DNA of 64,000 nucleotides from a virus (taxonomy: Duplodnaviria > Caudoviricetes), in the IMG/VR virus record IMGVR_UViG_3300029288_000159, positions 7,498-71,497 of that record. One strand, given 5' to 3'. This document shows, piece after piece, positions 16,281 to 51,277 of the stretch (positions are counted from its first letter, which is position 1; every line of letters begins with the position of its first letter). A program made the position numbers and the translations under genes. A model generated the notes under the pieces. The model worked only from the letters and a program-made list of their open reading frames with translations, was not told the DNA's origin and made no database searches.

Positions 16281-16778
16281 GTGCCAAAAAGGGAAGCCAT
16301 GATCGTCGCTGTCGTCAAGACCGCCGAAACCCGCCATGCAGCGGCCAGCATCTGTCGAGACCTCCTTGCCGGAGTCCCACATGTGCTCGACGGAGTGGTC
16401 ACGGAGGTTGCAGAGCACGCCCAGCAACACCCCGAATTCTACACGCCCCGCCACGGCATGGCAGGCCTCCAAGGAGCGACGAAGCATCGATTGATCGAGG
16501 CCAGCAGCGTCCGGGCAACCGCACGCGTGGAGAACGCCCGTCCCTATGCCGCGGCCGTCCACATGGGCGCCAAGCCGCATCCAATTGTGGCGAAGAACGC
16601 TCCCTTTCTCGTCTTCTTTTGGCCGAAAGTCGGCCATGTCGTTCACTTTCGTCGAGTCAATCACCCCGGAAACAAGCCGATGCCATTCCTACAGACTCCT
16701 GTGCGATACGGTGAGCAGAGGCTGGTCATCGCTCTCTACGACCTTCTCGGCAACGCGGTCCGCCGGTATTCGCGGTAA
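16281..16778 (+). CDS. HK97 gp10-like tail completion protein
   Basis: YAAAVHMG...RRVNHPGNKPMPFL motif. Confidence 0.7.
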   Translation: MPKREAMIVAVVKTAETRHAAASICRDLLAGVPHVLDGVVTEVAEHAQQHPEFYTPRHGMAGLQGATKHRLIEASSVRATARVENARPYAAAVHMGAKPHPIVAKNAPFLVFFWPKVGHVVHFRRVNHPGNKPMPFLQTPVRYGEQRLVIALYDLLGNAVRRYSR

Positions 16779-17533
16779 TGCTGGGGTACGGCTCATTTCA
16801 GTATGGCGGAGTCGTCTATCCGATTCCGGCCGTCGCAGCGGACACCAACCTCCTCGAGATATGCGATCCGGGACTCGGTGCGCTTCTGCAGTTCTTTCGG
16901 TCGCTTCTCGATGCATACGTTGGCCCAGTTCTTCTTAGCGCCGCGGCGAACGATCCAGAGATTACGGTCACTATCGGAAACATCCTTCCGCTCGACCCGC
17001 TTCGGATTGGCTCGCATACCACTTTCAAGTTCCCGATTCTCTGTGGATGGCGACTGAGCGCCGACTACGACAACCGCACGATTCCCTGGCGCCAAAGCAC
17101 ATCCAAGATTCGCGTCGCCTACGTCCTTCCTCCGCTCGACGCTGACCGTCTTCTCGCTCTCGATCCGATTCTGACCTCAGTCGAGCGAGTCATTGACCGG
17201 TCACTTTTCCAGGCATTCGACCCGAACTTCCTCGCTGGTCAGACGGTATTCACCGTTAATGGCATATGCAACGCGAAGCTCATCTCGACGACGCGAGGGC
17301 AGTACCAACTCGCCCAAGAGATCGACTTCGGTGCTGTCATTCTCGACCTTGAAGTCGAAGAGCGACAGATGCCTCACGTCTCGGGTGGACCGTTTACAGA
17401 CTCTCGTCTTCAGATTGATAACGCTTCCGATACCACTATCGACCCTGTGTTCCAGGTGGCTATCGGAGGCGAGATAGACGAGCGCGTGACCGGCACAGCA
17501 GCCGGTGTATTGCCAACACTATCCGGTTTCTAG
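16778..17533 (+). CDS. Tail terminator/completion candidate
   Basis: Position before the sheath; ends with a VTGTAAGVLPTL repeat unit. Confidence 0.5.
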   Translation: MLGYGSFQYGGVVYPIPAVAADTNLLEICDPGLGALLQFFRSLLDAYVGPVLLSAAANDPEITVTIGNILPLDPLRIGSHTTFKFPILCGWRLSADYDNRTIPWRQSTSKIRVAYVLPPLDADRLLALDPILTSVERVIDRSLFQAFDPNFLAGQTVFTVNGICNAKLISTTRGQYQLAQEIDFGAVILDLEVEERQMPHVSGGPFTDSRLQIDNASDTTIDPVFQVAIGGEIDERVTGTAAGVLPTLSGF

Positions 17534-37541: not shown

Positions 37542-37940
37542 ATGAAAGTAACAGCAGTACGACGCAACGCGATGGTCGATAACTTCTGCGCGCAGCACAA
37601 CAGCGGAACCGTCAACATCTACGCCGCGAACGTGGGCGTTCCTGCCGACGCAGATGCGGCGAACACCAACACGCTCCTCTGCACGCTGACGTTCGGATCC
37701 ACGGCATTTGGCGCTGCTTCGGGCGGTGTCGCTACGGCGAACAGTATCAGCCAGGACACCGACGCCGATGCGACTGGGACTGCCGCATTCGCTCGCACAG
37801 CCGCATCGGGCGGGACCGTTCTAGGACAATGGAGCGTAGGCACGAGCGGGGCAGAGATCAACCTCAATACTCTGTCGATCGTGCAACACGCGACCGTTTC
37901 GATCACATCGATGACGATCACGATGGGCGTAGGAACCTGA
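37542..37940 (+). CDS. Virion-type beta protein (132 aa)
   Basis: AAGGAG RBS; RNAM.D...GT.NIY...LLCTL.F...FG.AS.G pattern seen next to phage fibre genes. Confidence 0.7.
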   Translation: MKVTAVRRNAMVDNFCAQHNSGTVNIYAANVGVPADADAANTNTLLCTLTFGSTAFGAASGGVATANSISQDTDADATGTAAFARTAASGGTVLGQWSVGTSGAEINLNTLSIVQHATVSITSMTITMGVGT

Positions 37941-37995: not shown

Positions 37996-40900
37996 ATGTC
38001 CATACGTCAGTCCGCTACTGGAAACTGTGCAACACTTGCCAGCGTCCCTGCCCGGGGCGCGACTGGCATGACTATTTGTTGCTGGTTTCGACGACGTGGA
38101 GCAGCTCAGGCGTGGGACTACGTACTCAATCTGTGTGACGGTAATCTGTACAACTTCCTCGGACTAGTCAATCCTGGAACTGGCACTGGTATAGACATAT
38201 TCCCAAATGGATATTGGGATGAGCCGATGCTGTCGGCCGCCACTACTGATGAGTGGTATTTCATGGGCTGGAAGGTGGCAGCAGACGGGAACACGGTAAC
38301 AGGATTCTGCAGCGTGTCGGGAGGGGGCACAATCACTGATGTCGTATGTGATACGTCTTCTGTTCAGATAGATACGTATGTCACAACGCTTTACATGCTC
38401 CACGGGTTCGACGGATACTGGCTAAATGGTGCAATAGAGAACCTTAAAATATGGAGCGCCGTCCTCACCAACGCTGAATTGGTCGAGGAGATGTGGTCGT
38501 ATGAGCCCGTGCGATCGTCTGGGCTGTGGGCTCGCATTCCGCTTAACGATATATCGTCTGCTGCATTTCTAGACACGTCGGGAAATGGGCATAATGCGAC
38601 GAAGATTGGTAGTCCGACCGCAGAAGCGAGTCCGCCGTATCAGATTGCGGTGACAGGCACGGCTGCGGGTATTCTCCCAACGCTCGTTGGGGCTGCGGTT
38701 GCTGTGCACATGATTCCGGTGACTGGCACTGCAGCTGGGGATTTGCCTGGACTAGTAGGTGAAGCAACCATGTGGGAAGCTGTCCCAGTGACAGGGACAG
38801 CAGCTGGGATCCTTGCGACTTTGGCGGGGAGCGCTGCAGGTTATCTCCCAATCACTGGCACAGCAGCTGGCATTCTATCTGGATTGACCGGTGCAGCCAC
38901 GGCTTCAACTGTGAAGCAGTATACATTTTATCACAATGGGTTCGTGGATCCTGGCACACATGACAGCGGGTATGCGTGGCGCTATTGGGTCAATGGTCAG
39001 AGAGGATATTTCAAGGACAATGGTGGCAACGGTGAGTTGTTTGCCATCGAAGATGATCAGGGAAGTACCAATCGCCTCCACATCATAAAGAGCACGGATG
39101 GCGGTGCAACGTGGACTTGGGTGAGTCCTACCGGCTCTCTCGCTTCCTACGATTTCACGGGTGTCCTATATCAGGGAGGAGCGCAGGACTCGAGCGGGAA
39201 GCTGCATCTAGCATTCGTATCGACAGCGACCGTCACGTACATGCGCGTGGTGCTCACTCGTACGGATGGAGCCATCACCGGGCTCGACTACGAGGCAACA
39301 TTCAATCTGCCAGGCACGTACGATGCGACCGGAGACATCTGGTCATGTGTCGAGATCGTCACCACAGCATCATCTGTGGAATGTGTACTGATCTGTTCCG
39401 ACGATCGCCCGGCCAGCCCGGGGACTGGTATCCGCACTCAGGCAGTCAAATCGTCGAGTATCACCCCTGCAACCGCAACCGATTTCACGAAGCTCGATGG
39501 CACAGCAGGGGCAACAGTGTTGCTCACGCATGCTACGGCAAACTCGCATGAGCATCACACTCTCTTCGCGCAATGCACCAACACACGTGATGTCTGGCTG
39601 TTTTTGGGAAGTCAGTTTGCAGAGGGTGGACCGGACGGCTCTGGTCTATATCTCAGCTATTTGCGACTAACTGCCAGTGGCGGGACGTGGACGGTTGGGA
39701 GTCTGACCGCTACTCCATATGGTAATAGCGTTACCCAAAAGACGACATTGCAGTGCGTGATTGGCACTGACGATTACGTTTGGGTAGTGATGATTACCCC
39801 GGCAGATGGCATTTGCCTCGACCGGGTGAACGCGTCCGGATACACGCACAAGGCTATTCCGTGCCCAGACACGGGGACGGAACAGATTGGTTGGTGCGTT
39901 GCCCAAGTGTCGGCCGACGGAACCAACGCATTCGCCGTTTGGGATCTGATGTCCCCGACGTCCACGAAGTACGGAGCATACTCGACTCTTGCCGGGACAT
40001 GGACTACGTGGACAGAATCTCGGAGCGCGTACATTGGCGATTCATGGGGGATGGCGAAAGGCCCGTGGGTCGACGGTATTATCGCTGGTCGTGTTGACGA
40101 GACGACTCATTACGTCTCGCTGGCGACCGTCTATCGCATTGAGCAAATCAGTGTGAGTGGGGCGGCGGGCGTCCTGCCCGGATTGACCGGGGCGGCGACG
40201 GGAACGGAGACCATTTCGGGGACTGCAGTTGGGTCATTGGTCGTACTTGCCGGCAGTGCTCAGGCAGTGGAAAGTATTCCTGGAACTGCAGCCGGCGTCC
40301 TCAATACAGACCATCCGATCTCGCTTATCGACCATTATGCGATTGGCGACGTCAACACGCAGAACCCCGGAGTAGTGCTGCATCTCTCCGGAGCTGTCCC
40401 GGAGACGCAAGTCACATTTGGAGGGACTCCTGCAGCGGCCATCGTCGTTGATTCGAGCGCGCAGGTCACTGTCACGACTCCGTCGCTCGCGTACGGGGAA
40501 TATGTCGTCCTTGCGTTCAGTGCGGCCCTGCGCGGCGCTGTAGTCGCCTCCGAGATCTTCACCGGGACAGCTGCGGGCGTGCTCCCATCGCCGCTCGTTG
40601 GCCTGGCGGGAATGTACGAGGACATCCCGGGCACGGCGTCGGGCGTGCTTCCGGGACTGGTCGGAGCCGCTGTCGGCACCGTCAACGTCGCTCCCCCCGT
40701 GACCGGCACAGCAGCCGGCGCTCTCCCGACGTTTACCGGAGCGAGCGCCGCCATGGAGTTTATGGTCGGAGCTGCGGCCGGGGTACTTCCGACGCTCGTT
40801 GGGGATGCATCTGCGAGTGAGGGGGTTACTGGTACCGCTACCGGTGCTCTTTCGACGCTTGCTGGCGCTGCGACGGCCAGCGAGGATATTCCCGGTATCT

Positions 40901-41952
40901 CTGCAGGTACGCTCTCCACTCTCACGGGATTCGCTCAGGGTTCCTCGGTCGAGGCCGGAGCCATCAATGGGACAGCTGCCGGAGATCTCCCAACACTAGC
41001 CGGTGCTTCGACCGCAAGTGAAGATATCTCAGCGACAGCCATCGGCGTCCTCCCAACTCTCACCGGAGTTTCCGCAGGGTACGCCAGCATTTTTGGTCAG
41101 GCAGCGGCAAATGTTCAGACGCTGGTCGGTGCGGCGGCAGGCATTGAGTCAATATCCGGCCCGGCTGCTGGCGTTCTCCAGACACTCGTCGGAGATGCCA
41201 TTGGGAGTCGAGTAGGCCCCGACGAGGTAACAGGCACTGCGGCTGCCAATCTCGTTACGCTCGTGGGCACTGGTGGGGCGTACGAGGACCTTCCAGGGAC
41301 AGCCGCTGGAACACTCCCTGGTCTGACTGGATCTGCGAGCGGCGAGGTAAGCATCCACGATGTTCTTGCGACGGCCGACGGCATCCTCCCAAATCTGTCT
41401 GGCGATGCCTTGGGGTGGCATGAGATTCTGGGGACGGCCGACGGCGTACTCCCTACTCTCACGGGAGCATCGATCGCCTACTCGATCAGCTTTGCTCCAT
41501 TCCCCAACGACGCTGTATTCACGGTGGCGGAGCCAATCACTGATGACTTTTCAACCGAAGACTCCATCGACGATCAGACTGCCATCCTCACTGTTCTCAC
41601 GCCAGCCGGGAGTTCGACCATGCTCATTTCACGAAAAACCAAAGACACTCGCCCTCTGGTCGTTTCGATCCTGAGCAATGGAGTCGCACTCCCTCTGACC
41701 GGAATCACGAGTGTCGTCGTGAACATCCGTCGAGCTGGCTCGGCGACATACATTCAGCGGCGCGCCGCATGCACAATCACGGAACCGGCTACTGGAACCA
41801 TCTCCTATGCCTGGCAGCCGGACGATCTCGCTGTGCCTGACCTCTACATCTTCGAGTTCGTGCTGCTATTCTCGGATGGGACTGAGACCGTATTGCCGGT
41901 GGCGGACCTGACAATGACGGTCGAACCCCGCGTGGTGGACGATGCCGCATAG
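37996..41952 (+). CDS. Giant adhesin/fibre-like protein (1318 aa): LamG-like N-terminus, propeller-like middle, IPT-like segment, many GTAAGxLPxLxG repeats, BppU-like C-terminus
   Basis: LDTSGNGHNA (LamG-type); IIKSTDGGATWT (BNR); more than 20 repeat units; C-terminal TGTISYAWQPDDL..PDLYIFEF. Confidence 0.72.
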   Translation: MSIRQSATGNCATLASVPARGATGMTICCWFRRRGAAQAWDYVLNLCDGNLYNFLGLVNPGTGTGIDIFPNGYWDEPMLSAATTDEWYFMGWKVAADGNTVTGFCSVSGGGTITDVVCDTSSVQIDTYVTTLYMLHGFDGYWLNGAIENLKIWSAVLTNAELVEEMWSYEPVRSSGLWARIPLNDISSAAFLDTSGNGHNATKIGSPTAEASPPYQIAVTGTAAGILPTLVGAAVAVHMIPVTGTAAGDLPGLVGEATMWEAVPVTGTAAGILATLAGSAAGYLPITGTAAGILSGLTGAATASTVKQYTFYHNGFVDPGTHDSGYAWRYWVNGQRGYFKDNGGNGELFAIEDDQGSTNRLHIIKSTDGGATWTWVSPTGSLASYDFTGVLYQGGAQDSSGKLHLAFVSTATVTYMRVVLTRTDGAITGLDYEATFNLPGTYDATGDIWSCVEIVTTASSVECVLICSDDRPASPGTGIRTQAVKSSSITPATATDFTKLDGTAGATVLLTHATANSHEHHTLFAQCTNTRDVWLFLGSQFAEGGPDGSGLYLSYLRLTASGGTWTVGSLTATPYGNSVTQKTTLQCVIGTDDYVWVVMITPADGICLDRVNASGYTHKAIPCPDTGTEQIGWCVAQVSADGTNAFAVWDLMSPTSTKYGAYSTLAGTWTTWTESRSAYIGDSWGMAKGPWVDGIIAGRVDETTHYVSLATVYRIEQISVSGAAGVLPGLTGAATGTETISGTAVGSLVVLAGSAQAVESIPGTAAGVLNTDHPISLIDHYAIGDVNTQNPGVVLHLSGAVPETQVTFGGTPAAAIVVDSSAQVTVTTPSLAYGEYVVLAFSAALRGAVVASEIFTGTAAGVLPSPLVGLAGMYEDIPGTASGVLPGLVGAAVGTVNVAPPVTGTAAGALPTFTGASAAMEFMVGAAAGVLPTLVGDASASEGVTGTATGALSTLAGAATASEDIPGISAGTLSTLTGFAQGSSVEAGAINGTAAGDLPTLAGASTASEDISATAIGVLPTLTGVSAGYASIFGQAAANVQTLVGAAAGIESISGPAAGVLQTLVGDAIGSRVGPDEVTGTAAANLVTLVGTGGAYEDLPGTAAGTLPGLTGSASGEVSIHDVLATADGILPNLSGDALGWHEILGTADGVLPTLTGASIAYSISFAPFPNDAVFTVAEPITDDFSTEDSIDDQTAILTVLTPAGSSTMLISRKTKDTRPLVVSILSNGVALPLTGITSVVVNIRRAGSATYIQRRAACTITEPATGTISYAWQPDDLAVPDLYIFEFVLLFSDGTETVLPVADLTMTVEPRVVDDAA

Positions 41953-46849: not shown

Positions 46850-47779
46850 TCATCTCGGGCGCGTGAAGTGGGTGCCGACATGGGCTGTGTTCGATGAGGG
46901 TGTTGTTGTCTCTCGAAGGTTCTGAAGTTTCCAGACCAGGCATTCCTCATCATGCGCTCGAATGGTCTCTCCGTTGTCCCCGCCCTCGTACCCACACAGG
47001 TGGCATTCGCCGATGTCGTGCACCCAATCGATGCACGCTTGCGCGATGTCCTCTATGAGTTCCGCCTCAGTGTGTGTCGGCTCGCAGTCAGCGAGTCCGG
47101 GAGCATACACAGGCTTAGTCGGCTCGCGACGATAGACCGTGCGCACCGATATCGCCCAAACCCACGGATTGGCATCCCATCTAGCAAACACCTGGCGCGA
47201 TACAACATCTGCCGCACAATCTGCCGCACAGGTTGATCTTTCCTGGATCCGTATCGCTCTAACGCTCTCGATCAGTAGATGCGCTCTCGATGCGTGCTGA
47301 GGCATCGTTCTGGCAGGCTGCCACAATCCTTTCGTATTGGGGCTGTGTGGCAGACGCAACAGAATTCCGCCCAGTGGGGCATGTCGCCACTGCTCGCGAA
47401 TCCACAACTCATCTCCCTCGCGGCCGTACGGACATCTGAAATTGTCCGACGAATCATCGGGATAATCTGGTCCGACCTCGCGCCACAGTCCAGGTTCGCC
47501 AAAGGGTGTCCCGTCATCAGGTGCGACGCCCCACATTCGCTGTAGATGGTGACGCTTAAGCGGTTGCGGGTGCACCAATCGATAGAATTGGGTGCACTCG
47601 CCATACGCTAACTTGCTGGCCTCGGTCGAGCTGAACGTTACTGGGCGGATGCGGCTCACTTGTTTCATCGGAACCTGTACTTTCTTACGGGGTCGTGCCG
47701 GCATGCATAGCATCGCCACGTCCCATTCGGCTGATTGCCTCCGTCCTGCGGGTAGGGGTTTTCGGTCCCGCATGCGCAT
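46850..47779 (-). CDS. ASCH/PUA-like conserved phage protein (true start probably downstream of 47779)
   Basis: CPYG..GDELWIRE...WQPARTMP..ASR..L.IESVR...WDANPWVW motif. Confidence 0.7.
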   Translation of the reverse strand: MRMRDRKPLPAGRRQSAEWDVAMLCMPARPRKKVQVPMKQVSRIRPVTFSSTEASKLAYGECTQFYRLVHPQPLKRHHLQRMWGVAPDDGTPFGEPGLWREVGPDYPDDSSDNFRCPYGREGDELWIREQWRHAPLGGILLRLPHSPNTKGLWQPARTMPQHASRAHLLIESVRAIRIQERSTCAADCAADVVSRQVFARWDANPWVWAISVRTVYRREPTKPVYAPGLADCEPTHTEAELIEDIAQACIDWVHDIGECHLCGYEGGDNGETIRAHDEECLVWKLQNLRETTTPSSNTAHVGTHFTRPR

Positions 47780-47932
47780 GCTCGTGTTGCCCGATGCGCA
47801 TCCGGGACTGTGTCGGGCGCTACATCAGCGGCAGGAAGCTCGACCGGCGGGACCTCGAAGGACGAAAACGCCCCTCCGCATGGTGGGTGCACCCGTCCGA
47901 ATATCGCATGTTGAGTGGTGAAACCGCATCGA

Positions 47933-48223
47933 TCACATCGATAGATCCGCATGGTCATCCTCTAAAGAACACTTGATCAGTGGCACCTTGCTCCAGTCGA
48001 GTGGTTCGGCGGGATACTCACCATGAGTATTGCATGCTGGGCACACGGCCTGTACTGGCTCATCCGAGTCGCCAAGTATGAGAGCACGCCTGAGTTTGGC
48101 CCCGCCATCGATGCGAATCCACCGAGTGTCTTGGCACATATTACAGTTCATTGCGTGCCTCCCATCAAAACGGTATCTCCTCTTCGCTGTCGAGCGGCCT
48201 GGTCTCGATTTCGTGGATGTCAT
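47933..48223 (-). CDS. Small Cys-containing protein
   Basis: CNMC and CPAC motifs. Confidence 0.45.
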   Translation of the reverse strand: MTSTKSRPGRSTAKRRYRFDGRHAMNCNMCQDTRWIRIDGGAKLRRALILGDSDEPVQAVCPACNTHGEYPAEPLDWSKVPLIKCSLEDDHADLSM

Positions 48224-48353
48224 CGATGGTTCGCGCCAACTCCTTCGTGAATCGTTCGATCTCCACTATCGCTACCGTGGCTCTGCGATAGGCTGCCACG
48301 AGTTCATGCGCTCTGTTTACTGAGTTGCTCAGATCACTTATGGCTTGGTTCAT
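48165..48353 (-). CDS. Small coiled-coil protein
   Basis: ATGA overlap with the nuclease stop. Confidence 0.5.
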   Translation of the reverse strand: MNQAISDLSNSVNRAHELVAAYRRATVAIVEIERFTKELARTIDDIHEIETRPLDSEEEIPF

Positions 48354-49996
48354 TGCTTTCTCCGTCGCTCTTCGTAGCGGACCTGCGTGATCGTCTCCGT
48401 CGCACCGACCTCGCGCAACGACGTCATGACTCGCTCGAGTGTGTCTGCCACCGAAAGTCCTCGGGCTCGAGCCGCATCCTTGATCGCCTCCTTGCTTGTG
48501 CTCGGCCGTACGGCTTCGGGGAACTCGAACATGCGAACGAGACCATCAGCGTTGAGGCGAATCCGCTCAACAGGAACTTCGTGGCGACCCCACACGCCCG
48601 TGTCGGTACGGATGCCTCCGTTCGCGTCGGCCCATGTCTGTAGAGCTCTCTGGACGTCATCTACAGCCATCCTCACACGTTGGAGACGAGACAACATCCA
48701 CGCTGCATGCCTCTCGTCCTGGATGAGTTCTGGGAGCGCTACAACCGGGTAGTCCATCTCCGGGTTCAGTGATGGGTCGACTTGTTCGATGCTCTCTCTG
48801 GTTTCGGGGCAGAAAGCGCGAGCGGGGCAGTATCTGCACCACGCTCCCGGATTGGGTGCCAGCTTTTCATCCATGGCTCTCTGGATGTCTGCTAGCGTCG
48901 CTCGCACTTCGAGGAAGTCAGCCGGGCCGAGTACTGCAGTCTCGGCCCGCACCATGTCTTCGTCCACGAACGCAAGCATGATCCGAATCGTCTGCGCACC
49001 TATCCATGCAGCTACAGCCGTCCCCAGAAACCGCATCTGCATGTTGTGCTCGATCGCCTCTGTGCCTTCGACCTGTCCAGTTTTCCAATCGATGACAGTG
49101 GGGCATGAGTCCCCGAGCACCAGATCTGCTGCGCCAGACCATTCGCCCGGCTCAAGGAATTCGAACACCTTGCGTGGGTCTTTGCCCGGGTGTAGCCGTG
49201 CACTGTGAGTTCTCGGATCGTAGATGACTGGATTCTCCACGCTCAGGATGGGTTGCGACAGGAACGGCGCCATCTCGCGTTCCCACGCGGCGATCCAGTT
49301 ACGGACTGTCTTCATGCTCTCCTTGAGAGAGATGCTCATGTCCTTTGCGATCTGATCAGGCCGCCGCGCCATACTGTTCGCTCGGTCGGCAGCGTAGGCG
49401 TGGAAGAGGCGTCCCATGCTCGCCTCCTCCGATGCCTCGCTGTCGTCCGCGGGCCAGACCGCATCTGGAGACCAGAATGCCCAGACGCAATGAACTGCGA
49501 TGTGGAGCCGGGAAGCTGTCGGGCGATGTTGGCGTAGTTCAGTCGATGTCGTCGATGTCATCGTAGGCTCATGCCAGGACACAGATATCGACATGCGCCG
49601 CAAAGTTACTGCTGCGCCCAGTACTATTGCTGTATTATCAAGTACGAGATCTCCGGGTACATCCAGTTGCATCAACAGTGATCCGTCTGCGGAGAATGTG
49701 CGACCAAACGAGGCTTTCCCGGTCCCACATGCAATTGCAGAAATCGGATTCGGAATGCTGATGATGCGCTGCTTGACAACGCCTTCTGTCGCTCGCTCGA
49801 TAACGCTGTTTGCCACTTGCGAGAATGCGGGTACTTCGAAGTGCAATTCCGCAAGCAGTCTGTTCTCAATGAGAATGGAGTCAACGTTAGGCATGTGGCC
49901 GGAATAGATCCGTATCAATCCAGCGTCATGCCTTGCGCCGAGTGCAGTCAGGTTTCTGACTTGTTTACACGCTGCAAGCCGTTCGGCATCTATCAT
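48350..49996 (-). CDS. PD-(D/E)XK (RecE/Cas4-like) exonuclease with an N-terminal virion-type domain
   Basis: PTASRL..., GAADLV...VIDWKTG, PGAWCRYCPAR..CP; adjacent to recT; N-terminal ~140 aa align to ORF 37542-37940. Confidence 0.8.
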   Translation of the reverse strand: MIDAERLAACKQVRNLTALGARHDAGLIRIYSGHMPNVDSILIENRLLAELHFEVPAFSQVANSVIERATEGVVKQRIISIPNPISAIACGTGKASFGRTFSADGSLLMQLDVPGDLVLDNTAIVLGAAVTLRRMSISVSWHEPTMTSTTSTELRQHRPTASRLHIAVHCVWAFWSPDAVWPADDSEASEEASMGRLFHAYAADRANSMARRPDQIAKDMSISLKESMKTVRNWIAAWEREMAPFLSQPILSVENPVIYDPRTHSARLHPGKDPRKVFEFLEPGEWSGAADLVLGDSCPTVIDWKTGQVEGTEAIEHNMQMRFLGTAVAAWIGAQTIRIMLAFVDEDMVRAETAVLGPADFLEVRATLADIQRAMDEKLAPNPGAWCRYCPARAFCPETRESIEQVDPSLNPEMDYPVVALPELIQDERHAAWMLSRLQRVRMAVDDVQRALQTWADANGGIRTDTGVWGRHEVPVERIRLNADGLVRMFEFPEAVRPSTSKEAIKDAARARGLSVADTLERVMTSLREVGATETITQVRYEERRRKQ

Positions 49997-51033
49997 TCGA
50001 ATCCCTCCCGGATTGGATCATGATCCGCCCCGTCCACCACCTCATTCTCTGTCGGCACGCGTGGGCGTTCTGTCGAGTAATGGACCGGCTTGAACGAGCC
50101 GCCCCGTTGCTCCTGCACGTCCTGCACGACGCCGTCCTGATCGACGGTCACCGTCTCGGGTTGCGGGTCCTCCGTACCCAGCATTTCCGCCGCGCTGGGC
50201 TGCGCAGGCGGGAGCGCCGCGGCCTGGAGGGCCTCGGATAACGGGACGAGTCCTCGGTCGTTCTGGCGGGTCGCCATGTTGCCCTGCGCCTCGTCCGAGT
50301 GGGAGAGCGCCATGGCCACCGATTCAGCCACCTCCGGCTCGACAGGGAGATACTTCACCAGTCTTCTCACAGCGGTTTTCCTGCTCATCTCGTCGGGCCA
50401 GTCGGCCCATGGCCCCGATTGCGCCGCAGAGCACGCCCGGATGGCCTCGAGGTCGCCACGCGTGCAGATCTCGACCTGCTTGCACCCATCCTTGAAGGTG
50501 GCGATCGCGTAGGAGGCGATGATTTGTCCTCTGTCTTCCATGCCCAGATACGGCACATGCTCAATTTTGGAGTCAGTCCCATAACGGACGTCGAACACAG
50601 GATCCTTCTCACGTACGACGTGAGCCTCGATACTTGCGATCAACTTGGAGCGTCGCGCGATGTCGAGCAGCCCGCGATATCCAGGGTCGAAGGAGCATTC
50701 CCATCGGTGCGGCGTGACCTTCTTGTTCTGTCGCGGGACGAGATATCCGCGACCGTTCACGCCACCCGGAGTGATGCCTAGCGCCGCCGCGTCCATGAGC
50801 GCCTTCAGCACGCTCTCGGGCGTGCACTCACCAAGGCGGGGTTGACGACTCGCCGCCAGGCACGCCAGGCGGATCATCTCCACTGGATTCACCTGCTTCG
50901 AGGCCACATCGTTCAACCGGTCGATGTTCGCCATCAACCAATCTTTCAACGTTGCCGGCCGGGTTTGCTGTTTCCGCTGACTCGGTGGCGTTGGCGATGG
51001 GGGATTCGGAGAACTCTGACGTTGCTGTGCCAT
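49993..51033 (-). CDS. recT: RecT-family single-strand annealing recombinase
   Basis: L.ECTPESVLKALMDAAALGITP...GYLVP...GYRGLLDIARRS...WPDEMSRKTAVRRLVKYLP. Confidence 0.92.
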   Translation of the reverse strand: MAQQRQSSPNPPSPTPPSQRKQQTRPATLKDWLMANIDRLNDVASKQVNPVEMIRLACLAASRQPRLGECTPESVLKALMDAAALGITPGGVNGRGYLVPRQNKKVTPHRWECSFDPGYRGLLDIARRSKLIASIEAHVVREKDPVFDVRYGTDSKIEHVPYLGMEDRGQIIASYAIATFKDGCKQVEICTRGDLEAIRACSAAQSGPWADWPDEMSRKTAVRRLVKYLPVEPEVAESVAMALSHSDEAQGNMATRQNDRGLVPLSEALQAAALPPAQPSAAEMLGTEDPQPETVTVDQDGVVQDVQEQRGGSFKPVHYSTERPRVPTENEVVDGADHDPIREGFE

Positions 51034-51277
51034 TGAGGATTTCCCTTCGTAGATGGTCTCTGAACTTGGCGATCACTTCGTCGATCGAGTGCTCGCCTGC
51101 AACGATGCACCTGCCGTCCACGCTTATATCACACATAAACACCGGTTCTTGCACTTGGACGAGCGATAGGTCAAAGTATGACATACTGCAGAACAACTCA
51201 GTCGTTGTGTTCCCGACGGCGATGAGTTCGGCCCTCGCTCGAGTATAGAGTTCCTTGACATCATAATCCATTGTCAT
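50828..51277 (-). CDS. Hypothetical protein; 3' end overlaps the recT 5' end
   Basis: AAGGAG RBS; ~200-nt overlap in another frame. Confidence 0.45.
   Translation of the reverse strand: MTMDYDVKELYTRARAELIAVGNTTTELFCSMSYFDLSLVQVQEPVFMCDISVDGRCIVAGEHSIDEVIAKFRDHLRREILNGTATSEFSESPIANATESAETANPAGNVERLVDGEHRPVERCGLEAGESSGDDPPGVPGGESSTPPW

What the first reader, a model, noticed from the sequence alone, without database searches (positions are those of the whole stretch)
48350..49996. Virion-type domain fused to the N-terminus of the RecT-partner exonuclease
Seen: the first ~140 aa parallel ORF 37542-37940 along its length (GLIRIYSG/GTVNIYAA; NRLLAELHFEVPAF/NTLLCTLTFGSTAF; GTGKASFGR/ATGTAAFAR; LVLDNTAIVLGAAVTL/INLNTLSIVQHATVSI) and read in frame into a PD-(D/E)XK nuclease. 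Inference: the nuclease may be tethered to the virion or fibre repeats for delivery, or the domain is a soluble decoy. An internal ATG (MTSTTSTELR) could also yield the bare nuclease.
Basis: partly seen in the sequence, partly recalled or inferred. Interest (0 to 1): 0.72.

Follow-up and report, generated by a model that had tools for sequence, protein, structure and literature searches.

The report
Tail-fibre bead domain fused to recombination exonuclease
In this uncultured contractile-tailed phage, a 435-base insert has put a copy of a small tail-fibre "bead" (garland) protein in frame onto the front of the exonuclease that partners RecT, a fusion I found nowhere else, which may or may not load the nuclease onto the virion.

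Summary
ORF 48350-49996 (-) is one uninterrupted 548-residue frame.

- **N-terminal domain:** residues 1-142 belong to phrog_3758, as does the stand-alone ORF 37542-37940. This is the garland / chain-fibre dimer family: 7-7-1 gp014 (PDB 9RKV), Milano gp125 and gp127, and A1002 gp40 (PDB 44NX). Its members form dimers that thread like beads onto an extended "rope" peptide of tail proteins.
- **Nuclease:** residues about 158-548 are an intact Cas4/DUF2800-type PD-(D/E)XK nuclease with the D, DxK and Q motifs and four cysteines.
- **Origin:** all five relatives found, including the two closest at 46-48% identity, are bare nucleases of 379-408 residues. In three of the four relatives' contigs examined the start overlaps or abuts a RecT gene directly. 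The window therefore carries a lineage-specific 435-nt in-frame insert at the old start codon (M146). The insert is lower in GC3 (0.51) than the nuclease (0.67) and RecT (0.74).
- **Rarity:** no other bead-nuclease fusion appeared in 1.8 or 5.8 billion proteins, and this scan had not noted one before.
- **Other fusions:** the bead domain is also fused to glycan-acting enzymes elsewhere.

My best reading is that this is still RecT's cytoplasmic exonuclease, now carrying a captured dimerising or docking module. Docking on the virion remains possible at about 20%. Read support for the junction could not be checked.

The parts
49562..49996 (-). Inserted segment of 435 nt (residues 1-145). It encodes a complete garland / chain-fibre 'bead' domain (family match over residues 1-142) with no stop codon. 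Its ATG overlaps the RecT stop.
   Evidence: phrog_3758 E 9.8e-13. Profile A1 hits 9rkv_A at 2.4e-19 and 44nx_B at 1.3e-14. The AF2 model matches 9rkv_A at Z 10.8. The segment is absent from all five nuclease homologs. Over 49565-49996 GC is 0.516 and GC3 0.51, against GC3 0.67 and 0.74 in the flanks.
49526..49561 (-). Linker, residues M146-H157. M146-T147 (ATGACA) is the ancestral nuclease start. It is followed by a 9-nt tandem duplication, ACATCGACG/ACATCGACT (TST-TST), at 49541-49558.
   Evidence: Sequence read. The L008 nuclease starts ATGACA directly at the RecT stop. AF2 pLDDT is below 50 through residue 155.
48629..49525 (-). Cas4/DUF2800-type PD-(D/E)XK nuclease core, residues about 158-456. 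The invariant residues are C170, D291, D303, K305, Q320, C387, C390 and C396.
   Evidence: Pfam PF12705 and PF10926 above their cut-offs. Invariant columns in alignment A2. Foldseek matches to RecE, Cas4-family ACE1, MGME1, SSO0001 and AdnAB, with E from 7e-5 to 1e-3.
48350..48628 (-). Conserved C-terminal domain of the nuclease (residues about 457-548) plus the stop codon. By the coordinates, the stop overlaps the ATG of the next small ORF (48165-48353).
   Evidence: The domain is aligned and conserved in all five homologs. pLDDT is 66-93. ORF coordinates.
49993..51033 (-). RecT single-strand annealing protein, translationally coupled to the fusion gene.
   Evidence: PF03837 E 3.1e-33 and phrog_148 E 8.5e-62. 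It is 66-67% identical to the RecT genes that directly precede the bare nucleases in L008 and L009.
37542..37940 (+). Stand-alone bead (garland) paralogue of 132 aa, immediately upstream of the repeat-rich fibre gene. It is the only other family member in the 71.5-kb genome.
   Evidence: phrog_3758 E 3.4e-25. A whole-genome profile search finds only these two copies.
37996..41952 (+). 1318-aa fibre protein with 21 copies of a repeat about 21-23 aa long (core GTAAGxLPxLxG), in three blocks at residues 219-305, 723-781 and 855-1163. It is the candidate 'rope' for the beads.
   Evidence: Repeat HMM. The rope role is an analogy with A1002 gp39, whose rope carries 11 dimer docking sites. No PHROG hit.
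16778..17533 (+). 251-aa structural-module protein just upstream of the sheath gene. Its extreme C-terminus is one copy of the same repeat (VTGTAAGVLPTLSGF), a possible second docking tag.
   Evidence: Repeat HMM E 1.4e-6, the only hit outside the fibre gene. Translation.

Best explanation
The gene is a genuine, lineage-specific chimera. Shown: in the ancestral arrangement, still present in the closest relatives, the start codon of a roughly 400-aa Cas4/DUF2800-type exonuclease overlaps the RecT stop codon. In this phage a 435-nt segment of lower GC sits exactly at that junction. It encodes a whole garland / chain-fibre 'bead' domain and has no stop codon. The segment took over the RecT-coupled ATG and reads in frame, through a Thr/Ser-rich linker, into the old start codon (M146) and an intact nuclease. 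Inferred: the protein still works in the cytoplasm as RecT's 5'-3' resection partner, made from the early operon. The captured bead domain keeps the family's core motifs, so it probably still folds and self-associates as its relatives do. That would give a tethered, probably dimeric, nuclease. This may be an advantage, for example two active sites held at one DNA end, or it may be merely tolerated because an in-frame junction keeps the nuclease translated.
For: The frame is continuous and ATGA-coupled, with a strong Shine-Dalgarno sequence only at M1. The bead domain is identified by PHROG, by a PDB profile search and by fold. All five nuclease homologs are unfused, at 379-408 aa. In L008, L009 and the contig carrying P0031, RecT directly precedes the nuclease with a 4-8 nt overlap. 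The first two codons, ATGACA, are shared by M146-T147 and the L008 start. There is a sharp GC and GC3 step at the domain boundary. The catalytic residues and four Cys are invariant, and the fold is RecE/Cas4-like. The gene lies inside a tightly coupled minus-strand operon of non-structural genes. On the family tree the fused copy sits on a long branch, 1.71 against a median of 0.55, and is not sister to the phage's own paralogue. It also scores lower against the family HMM, 49 bits against 90. This fits a copy released from virion constraints or taken from an unsampled donor.
Against: There is only one contig and one sequence, with no independent observation and no reads, so a single base error that removed a stop cannot be excluded. 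Nothing measures dimerisation or any benefit to recombination. Every characterised family member is a virion protein, so a cytoplasmic role for the domain would be new. Relatives manage without the domain. The AF2 model of the domain is only moderate (pLDDT 72), and AF2 did not model the domain in the full-length run.
Confidence: 0.45

Rival explanations
1. Virion-docked nuclease. The bead domain still dimerises, with itself or with the stand-alone paralogue, and clamps the repeat 'rope' of the 1318-aa fibre or the C-terminal tag of ORF 16778-17533. Some copies of the exonuclease would then be built into the tail-fibre garland and carried on the particle, for example to cut extracellular or surface-bound DNA.
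For: Solved family members are virion dimers that bind tail fibres or a rope strand by beta-sheet augmentation. The domain also occurs with the same N-to-C topology in front of an apiosidase-like glycosidase (P0015, seen in two samples), and it follows a weak SASA-esterase match in a probable structural operon (P0025). It therefore looks like a portable adaptor for enzymes. 7-7-1 and Milano keep two paralogues in the fibre module. This phage has one there and its only other copy on the nuclease, at a similar divergence of about 29-30%. In this genome the docking-like repeat is found only in structural proteins.
Against: The gene lies in the RecT operon on the opposite strand from the structural genes. 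The nuclease is a Cas4-like enzyme with four conserved Cys, the signature of an oxygen-sensitive Fe-S cluster that suits the cytoplasm (general knowledge of the Cas4/AddB family). Close relatives lack the domain. The fused copy is the most divergent member apart from P0009 and has a longer loop at residues 62-82. That the fibre repeats are docking sites is only an analogy, and the motif was not found beside bead genes in other loci.
Confidence: 0.2
2. Neutral passenger. A recent illegitimate-recombination insert happened to land in frame, or it lost its stop codon. The bead domain does nothing useful and will decay. The enzyme works in spite of it, or is partly made from M146.
For: The fusion is unique among 1.84 billion representatives and 5.8 billion clusters. 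The insert's composition has not been ameliorated. ATGA is present on both sides of the insert, and TGG (W141) and GAG (E143) are each one substitution away from a stop codon. The fused copy has a long branch and a lower family score.
Against: The domain is full length and keeps all five invariant family positions, G26, P36, L48, A57 and R99. It is open for 145 codons. The linker carries a TST-TST duplication that lengthens the spacer. M146 has no usable Shine-Dalgarno sequence.
Confidence: 0.25
3. Artefact. These are really two genes, a small bead gene followed by the nuclease, merged by a sequencing or assembly error in a metagenome-derived contig.
For: There is a single IMG/VR contig with no replicate. 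The family's stand-alone members end within a few residues of position 140-145.
Against: A chimeric assembly would need two exact joins 435 nt apart that preserve the frame and both flanking homologies. Substitution errors in consensus assemblies are rare (general knowledge). Even as two genes, a bead gene wedged between recT and its exonuclease would still be unusual.
Confidence: 0.1

Closest known systems
Garland proteins of Agrobacterium phages 7-7-1 (gp014, PDB 9RKV chain A; also gp012) and Milano (gp125, gp127)
   Same: They belong to the same sequence family: phrog_3758 with E 1e-36 for gp014 and gp012, and profile A1 against 9rkv_A at 2.4e-19. The fold also matches (Z 10.8, 126 residues, rmsd 3.1). 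The hosts are myoviruses, and the genes sit beside the tail-fibre gene, as the window's stand-alone copy does.
   Different: Those are free proteins of about 141-143 aa, and the papers describe them as dimers that decorate the distal tail fibres. Here one copy is covalently joined to a nuclease and is encoded in the recombination operon.
Chain-like fibre dimers of podophage A1002 (gp40/gp41, PDB 44NX), with GP4 gp80 (8JOU) and VP1 gp11 as structural analogues
   Same: A1002 gp40 matches the family profile at E 1.3e-14, and GP4 gives a weak fold hit at Z 3.9. These dimers thread onto a rope peptide, and A1002 uses two bead paralogues. The rope carries many docking sites, and the window's fibre has 21 repeats of about 21-23 aa.
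   Different: In those phages the beads carry no enzyme cargo. The rope role of the window's fibre is inferred, not shown.
RecE/RecT of the Rac prophage and lambda Exo/Beta (two-component 'SynExo' recombinases)
   Same: An exonuclease gene is adjacent to, and co-translated with, a RecT-type annealing protein. The nuclease model matches the RecE nuclease domain best (3h4r, E 7e-5). From my own knowledge, RecE also has a long N-terminal extension that is dispensable for nuclease activity.
   Different: The catalytic domain here is of the Cas4/DUF2800 type with four Cys, not the RecE or lambda-Exo type. The N-terminal extension is a recognisable virion-protein domain.
DUF2800 phage exonucleases (for example 7-7-1 gp096, in the duf2800-gp2.5-polA module)
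   Same: They share Pfam family PF10926/PF12705 and a phage recombination or replication context.
   Different: Those are usually paired with Gp2.5-type annealing proteins and are unfused. This one is paired with RecT and carries the bead domain.
Uncharacterised bead-enzyme fusions from metagenomes (P0015 bead + apiosidase-like glycosidase; P0025 weak SASA-esterase match + bead; P0022 and P0024 tandem beads)
   Same: The same bead domain serves as a module in multi-domain proteins. P0015 has the same order, bead then a linker of about 12 aa then the enzyme.
   Different: Their partners act on surface glycans. P0025 lies in what looks like a structural operon, and the context of P0015 is unknown. 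None of them carries a nuclease.

Membership tests
Garland / chain-fibre dimer ('bead') family, phrog_3758 | Full-length sequence-profile match to the family | tested here: met
   phrog_3758 E 9.8e-13 over profile positions 27-136 of 140. In alignment A1 the five invariant columns are kept. The A1 profile hits 9rkv_A at 2.4e-19 and 44nx_B at 1.3e-14. 7-7-1 gp014 and gp012 are phrog_3758 at about 1e-36.
Garland / chain-fibre dimer ('bead') family, phrog_3758 | Fold of a solved member (N-terminal helix plus beta-sandwich) | tested here: met
   The AF2 model (pLDDT 72) matches 9rkv_A at Z 10.8, 126 aligned residues and rmsd 3.1, well above the next hit at Z 6.9. Foldseek gives E 1.2e-4. The loop at residues 62-82 is not modelled.
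Garland / chain-fibre dimer ('bead') family, phrog_3758 | Free protein of about 130-150 aa encoded in the tail-fibre module | tested here: not met
   The fused copy is the N-terminus of a 548-aa protein in the recT operon. The stand-alone copy at 37542-37940 does meet this feature.
Garland / chain-fibre dimer ('bead') family, phrog_3758 | Forms dimers that clamp a rope or fibre strand, and is present in virions | not testable with these tools
   This needs multimer modelling, binding assays or virion proteomics.
Cas4/DUF2800-type PD-(D/E)XK nuclease | Pfam PF12705 and PF10926 above their gathering scores | tested here: met
   52.1 bits against 22, and 25.7 bits against 21.
Cas4/DUF2800-type PD-(D/E)XK nuclease | Catalytic D ... 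D-x-K and Q motifs, plus one N-terminal Cys and a C-terminal CxxCx5C | tested here: met
   D291, D303, K305, Q320, C170, C387, C390 and C396 are invariant in A2.
Cas4/DUF2800-type PD-(D/E)XK nuclease | Restriction-endonuclease-like fold | tested here: met
   Foldseek matches 3h4r (RecE), 9iac and 9iab (Cas4-family ACE1), 5zyu (MGME1), 4ic1 (SSO0001 Cas4) and AdnAB, with E from 7e-5 to 1e-3 and probability 1.0. Core pLDDT is mostly 78-95.
Cas4/DUF2800-type PD-(D/E)XK nuclease | Fe-S cluster and 5'-3' exonuclease activity | not testable with these tools
   This needs biochemistry.
RecT-exonuclease two-component recombinase | Exonuclease gene adjacent to, co-oriented with and translationally coupled to a RecT gene, with the synteny conserved in relatives | tested here: met
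   ATGA overlap at 49993-49996. RecT directly precedes the nuclease in L008, L009 and the contig carrying P0031.
RecT-exonuclease two-component recombinase | Physical and functional partnership of the two proteins | not testable with these tools
   This needs pull-down or recombineering assays.

The most novel reading that the evidence does not exclude
The phage uses a tail-fibre bead domain as a cargo adaptor and threads its own recombination exonuclease onto the repeat 'rope' of its fibres. Particles would then carry an active DNA nuclease at the baseplate periphery. More broadly, bead domains would be a general system for hanging enzymes such as glycosidases, esterases and nucleases on chain-like fibres.
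Probability: 0.18. Interest if true: 0.85.

Novelty: new variant of a known kind. Interest (0 to 1): 0.5.

Why it matters
The garland / chain-fibre bead proteins were described structurally only in 2024-2026, and so far only as passive building blocks. This gene, together with the glycosidase and esterase fusions found here, suggests the bead is a portable docking or dimerising module that phages can attach to enzymes. If the nuclease really rides on the fibre, it would be an unusual kind of virion-borne enzyme. If it does not, the gene is a clean, datable example of how a structural domain is captured at a gene boundary (an ATGA junction) and joined to a recombination enzyme. It would also be a natural N-terminally extended RecT partner to test in recombineering.

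Tried and rejected
- **Searches for the same fusion.** tblastn of the fusion and of the stand-alone copy against 50,697 phage records gave nothing. IMG/VR scans with the nuclease found nothing, and with RecT found only one distant locus.
- **Searches that failed or misled.** The word-indexed search with the whole protein found only the protein itself. The two 'long' hits of the exhaustive search, P0003 and probably P0002, are repeat proteins matched by chance rather than fusions.
- **Intragenomic duplication rejected.** The fused copy is not sister to the phage's own paralogue and differs from it in GC3, 0.51 against 0.69.
- **RecT-tail docking weakened.** I considered that the N-domain docks the disordered C-terminal tail of RecT. 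Relatives without the domain keep much of that tail, and no fibre-type repeat occurs in RecT or in the early operon.
- **M194 as a start rejected.** It has a strong GGAGGAGG upstream, but starting there would delete the conserved N-terminal Cys170.
- **Merged alignment unusable.** Alignment A3 stretched the short homologs across the nuclease, so the full-length fold used A2 and left the N-domain unmodelled.
- **Rope motif not general.** The repeat motif was not found next to bead genes in other loci.
- **Uninformative context.** The neighbourhood of P0009, the nearest branch on the tree, is a 751-bp contig that says nothing.
Full report
**1. The observation**

ORF 48350-49996 on the minus strand is one open frame of 548 codons. 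Its ATG overlaps the TGA of the upstream RecT gene as ATGA at 49993-49996, and GGGAGGG lies 7 nt upstream. Both sequences hit the same PHROG, phrog_3758 'virion structural protein': E 9.8e-13 for the fused copy and 3.4e-25 for the free one.

The rest of the protein hits Pfam PDDEXK_1 (52 bits), DUF2800, and phrog_69 'exonuclease'. Over the first 144 codons (49565-49996) frame 0 has no stop while the other two frames have 7 and 8, and only frame 0 has a positive codon-usage score. The internal Met that begins MTSTTSTELR is residue 146 (ATG at 49559-49561).

**2. What the N-terminal domain is**

An exhaustive phmmer search of 1.84 billion representatives found only free proteins of 120-148 aa as true relatives, at 33-43% identity, plus chance hits to repeat proteins. 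A profile built from these (A1) hits two solved structures:
- 9rkv_A, a 141-aa chain, at E 2.4e-19;
- 44nx_B, a 147-aa chain, at E 1.3e-14.

9RKV is the tail-fibre model of Agrobacterium phage 7-7-1 (PMC12796354). Its 141-aa chain has the length of gp014, the only small protein described in that model. [quoted passage not shown] Milano gp125 and gp127 are the equivalent pair, and the Milano paper compares their fold to the T4 gp8 and A511 gp105 connectors, which sit like beads on a string (PMC10811340).

44NX holds the fibre-dimer proteins gp40 and gp41 of Pseudomonas podophage A1002; the 147-aa chain has the length of gp40. Eleven such dimers thread onto the rope-like fibre-dock domain of gp39 by beta-sheet augmentation (PMC13730344).

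An AF2 model of the window's domain (pLDDT 72) matches 9rkv_A at Z 10.8 over 126 residues, well clear of the next hit. Foldseek gives E 1.2e-4. The domain is therefore a member, by sequence and by fold, of the garland / chain-fibre 'bead' family.

**3. The phage**

The record is an IMG/VR contig of 71,497 bp, estimated 97% complete. It is a contractile-tailed phage with sheath, baseplate hub, wedge and tape-measure genes. A profile search of all six frames finds exactly two bead sequences: the free one next to the fibre gene, and the fused one.

The gene after the free copy (37996-41952) encodes a 1318-aa protein with 21 copies of a repeat about 21-23 aa long. The only other copy in the genome is the extreme C-terminus of ORF 16778-17533, just before the sheath gene. 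By analogy with the A1002 rope these repeats could be docking sites for beads. This is inference. The motif was not found next to bead genes in other loci.

**4. The nuclease and how the fusion arose**

A search with the nuclease part alone found five relatives, P0028 to P0032, of 379-408 aa and about 30-48% identity. None has an N-terminal extension. In L008, L009 and the contig carrying P0031, the gene before the nuclease is RecT and overlaps the nuclease start by 4-8 nt. In L008 and L009 that RecT is 66-67% identical to the window's.

The L008 nuclease starts ATGACA, the same two codons as M146-T147 in the window. Relative to its kin, the window therefore carries a 435-nt insert (49562-49996) placed exactly at the old start codon, with ATGA on both sides. 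The last dozen residues of the window's RecT also differ from those of its relatives, so the left junction may lie slightly further upstream.

The insert has GC 0.516 and GC3 0.51 (measured over 49565-49996). The nuclease has GC3 0.67, RecT 0.74 and the free paralogue 0.69, and the step falls at the domain boundary.

On a family tree the fused copy sits on a long branch, 1.71 against a median of 0.55, and is not sister to the phage's own free copy. Its nearest neighbour is P0009, but that join may be long-branch attraction. P0009's contig has 50% GC, similar to the insert. The insert therefore looks acquired rather than recently duplicated within the genome.

Directly after M146 there is a 9-nt tandem duplication (TST-TST) that lengthens the Thr/Ser linker. 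W141 (TGG) and E143 (GAG) are each one substitution from a stop codon. The fusion could have arisen either by stop loss or directly from an in-frame recombination join.

The nuclease itself looks intact. D291, D303, K305, Q320 and the four cysteines C170, C387, C390 and C396 are invariant. Its AF2 core matches RecE, Cas4-family ACE1, MGME1, SSO0001 and AdnAB.

**5. Is the fusion found elsewhere?**

No. The 90%-identity cluster has one member on one contig, and the exhaustive search found no other long protein with the domain. A profile search among longer proteins found eleven other multi-domain proteins, none with a nuclease:
- P0015: the bead followed by an apiosidase-like glycosidase domain, seen in two samples;
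- P0025: a weak, sub-threshold SASA-esterase match followed by the bead, at the end of a run of large co-oriented genes that looks structural but has no Pfam hits;
- P0016 to P0021 and P0023: an unknown part of about 170-210 aa followed by the bead, with P0016 lying between the terminase and portal genes;
- P0022 and P0024: two beads in tandem.

The bead is therefore a modular domain. One partner enzyme is clearly glycan-acting (P0015) and a second probably is (P0025). This scan held no similar note on other DNA.

**6. Mechanism**

Shown:
- the two-domain architecture;
- the coupling to RecT;
- the origin by insertion at the recT/exonuclease junction;
- the intact catalytic residues;
- the family and fold of the N-domain.

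Inferred: the family's solved members dimerise through hydrophobic contacts and clamp an extended strand. A folded N-domain would therefore make the nuclease self-associate, or dock it onto a strand-bearing partner.

I rank the readings as follows:
- **(a) Cytoplasmic RecT partner with a captured self-associating module, 0.45.** For it: the operon position, the unfused relatives, the foreign composition and the long branch.
- **(b) Neutral passenger, 0.25.**
- **(c) Docking onto the fibre rope, so that the nuclease rides on the virion, 0.20.** For it: the enzyme-bead fusions, the single free paralogue where 7-7-1 and Milano have two, and the fact that the repeat occurs only in structural proteins.
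- **(d) Sequencing artefact, 0.10.**

M146 has no usable Shine-Dalgarno sequence, so the bare nuclease is probably at most a minor product.

**7. Comparison and novelty**

The nuclease is a member of the Cas4/DUF2800 group, and the locus is a RecT-exonuclease pair. The N-domain is a member of the bead family by sequence and fold, but it fails the family's usual description as a free protein in the fibre module.

From my own knowledge, the nearest functional analogue for an N-terminally extended RecT partner is RecE. I did not find the bead-nuclease combination in any database or paper searched. I class it as a new variant of a known kind. It is interesting mainly for the adaptor idea. It is limited by being a singleton without read support.

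Noticed in passing
window 37996-41952 (+): The 1318-aa fibre protein carries 21 copies of a repeat about 21-23 aa long (core GTAAGxLPxLxG), in three blocks at residues 219-305, 723-781 and 855-1163. The many tandem sites recall the rope of A1002 gp39, which docks 11 bead dimers, so this may be a chain-like fibre or garland rope in a myovirus.
   Followed up: partly
window 16778-17533 (+): A 251-aa protein with no PHROG hit, just upstream of the sheath gene, ends in a single copy of the fibre repeat (VTGTAAGVLPTLSGF). This may be a docking tag for the bead protein on a second virion component.
   Followed up: partly
P0015, P0025, P0022, P0024; loci L005, L011, L012: The bead domain occurs in other architectures: in front of an apiosidase-like glycosidase, behind a weak SASA-type esterase match, behind an unknown 170-210-aa part (encoded between terminase and portal in L005), and as tandem double beads. 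This suggests it is a general adaptor or dimerisation module.
   Followed up: partly
PHROG phrog_3758: The PHROG category 'head and packaging' is misleading for this family. The solved members (7-7-1 gp014, A1002 gp40) are tail-fibre garland or chain-fibre proteins.
   Followed up: yes
window 50828-51277 (-) and 49993-51033 (-): The 149-aa ORF upstream of RecT overlaps the annotated RecT start by about 200 nt in another frame. The true RecT start may be the downstream Met (MANIDRL...), because the family matches begin at residue 15 (PHROG) and residue 60 (Pfam).
   Followed up: no
window 48165-48353 (-), 47933-48223 (-), 47665-47958 (-): The fusion's stop overlaps the ATG of a 62-aa ORF, which is followed by two Cys-rich ORFs of 96 and 97 aa without family hits. 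The whole minus-strand block reads as one tightly coupled early operon.
   Followed up: no
L013 (NC_019519 15549-16640): Phage 7-7-1, which supplies the solved garland protein, also encodes a DUF2800 exonuclease (gp096). There it is unfused and is paired with a Gp2.5-like annealing protein rather than RecT.
   Followed up: no
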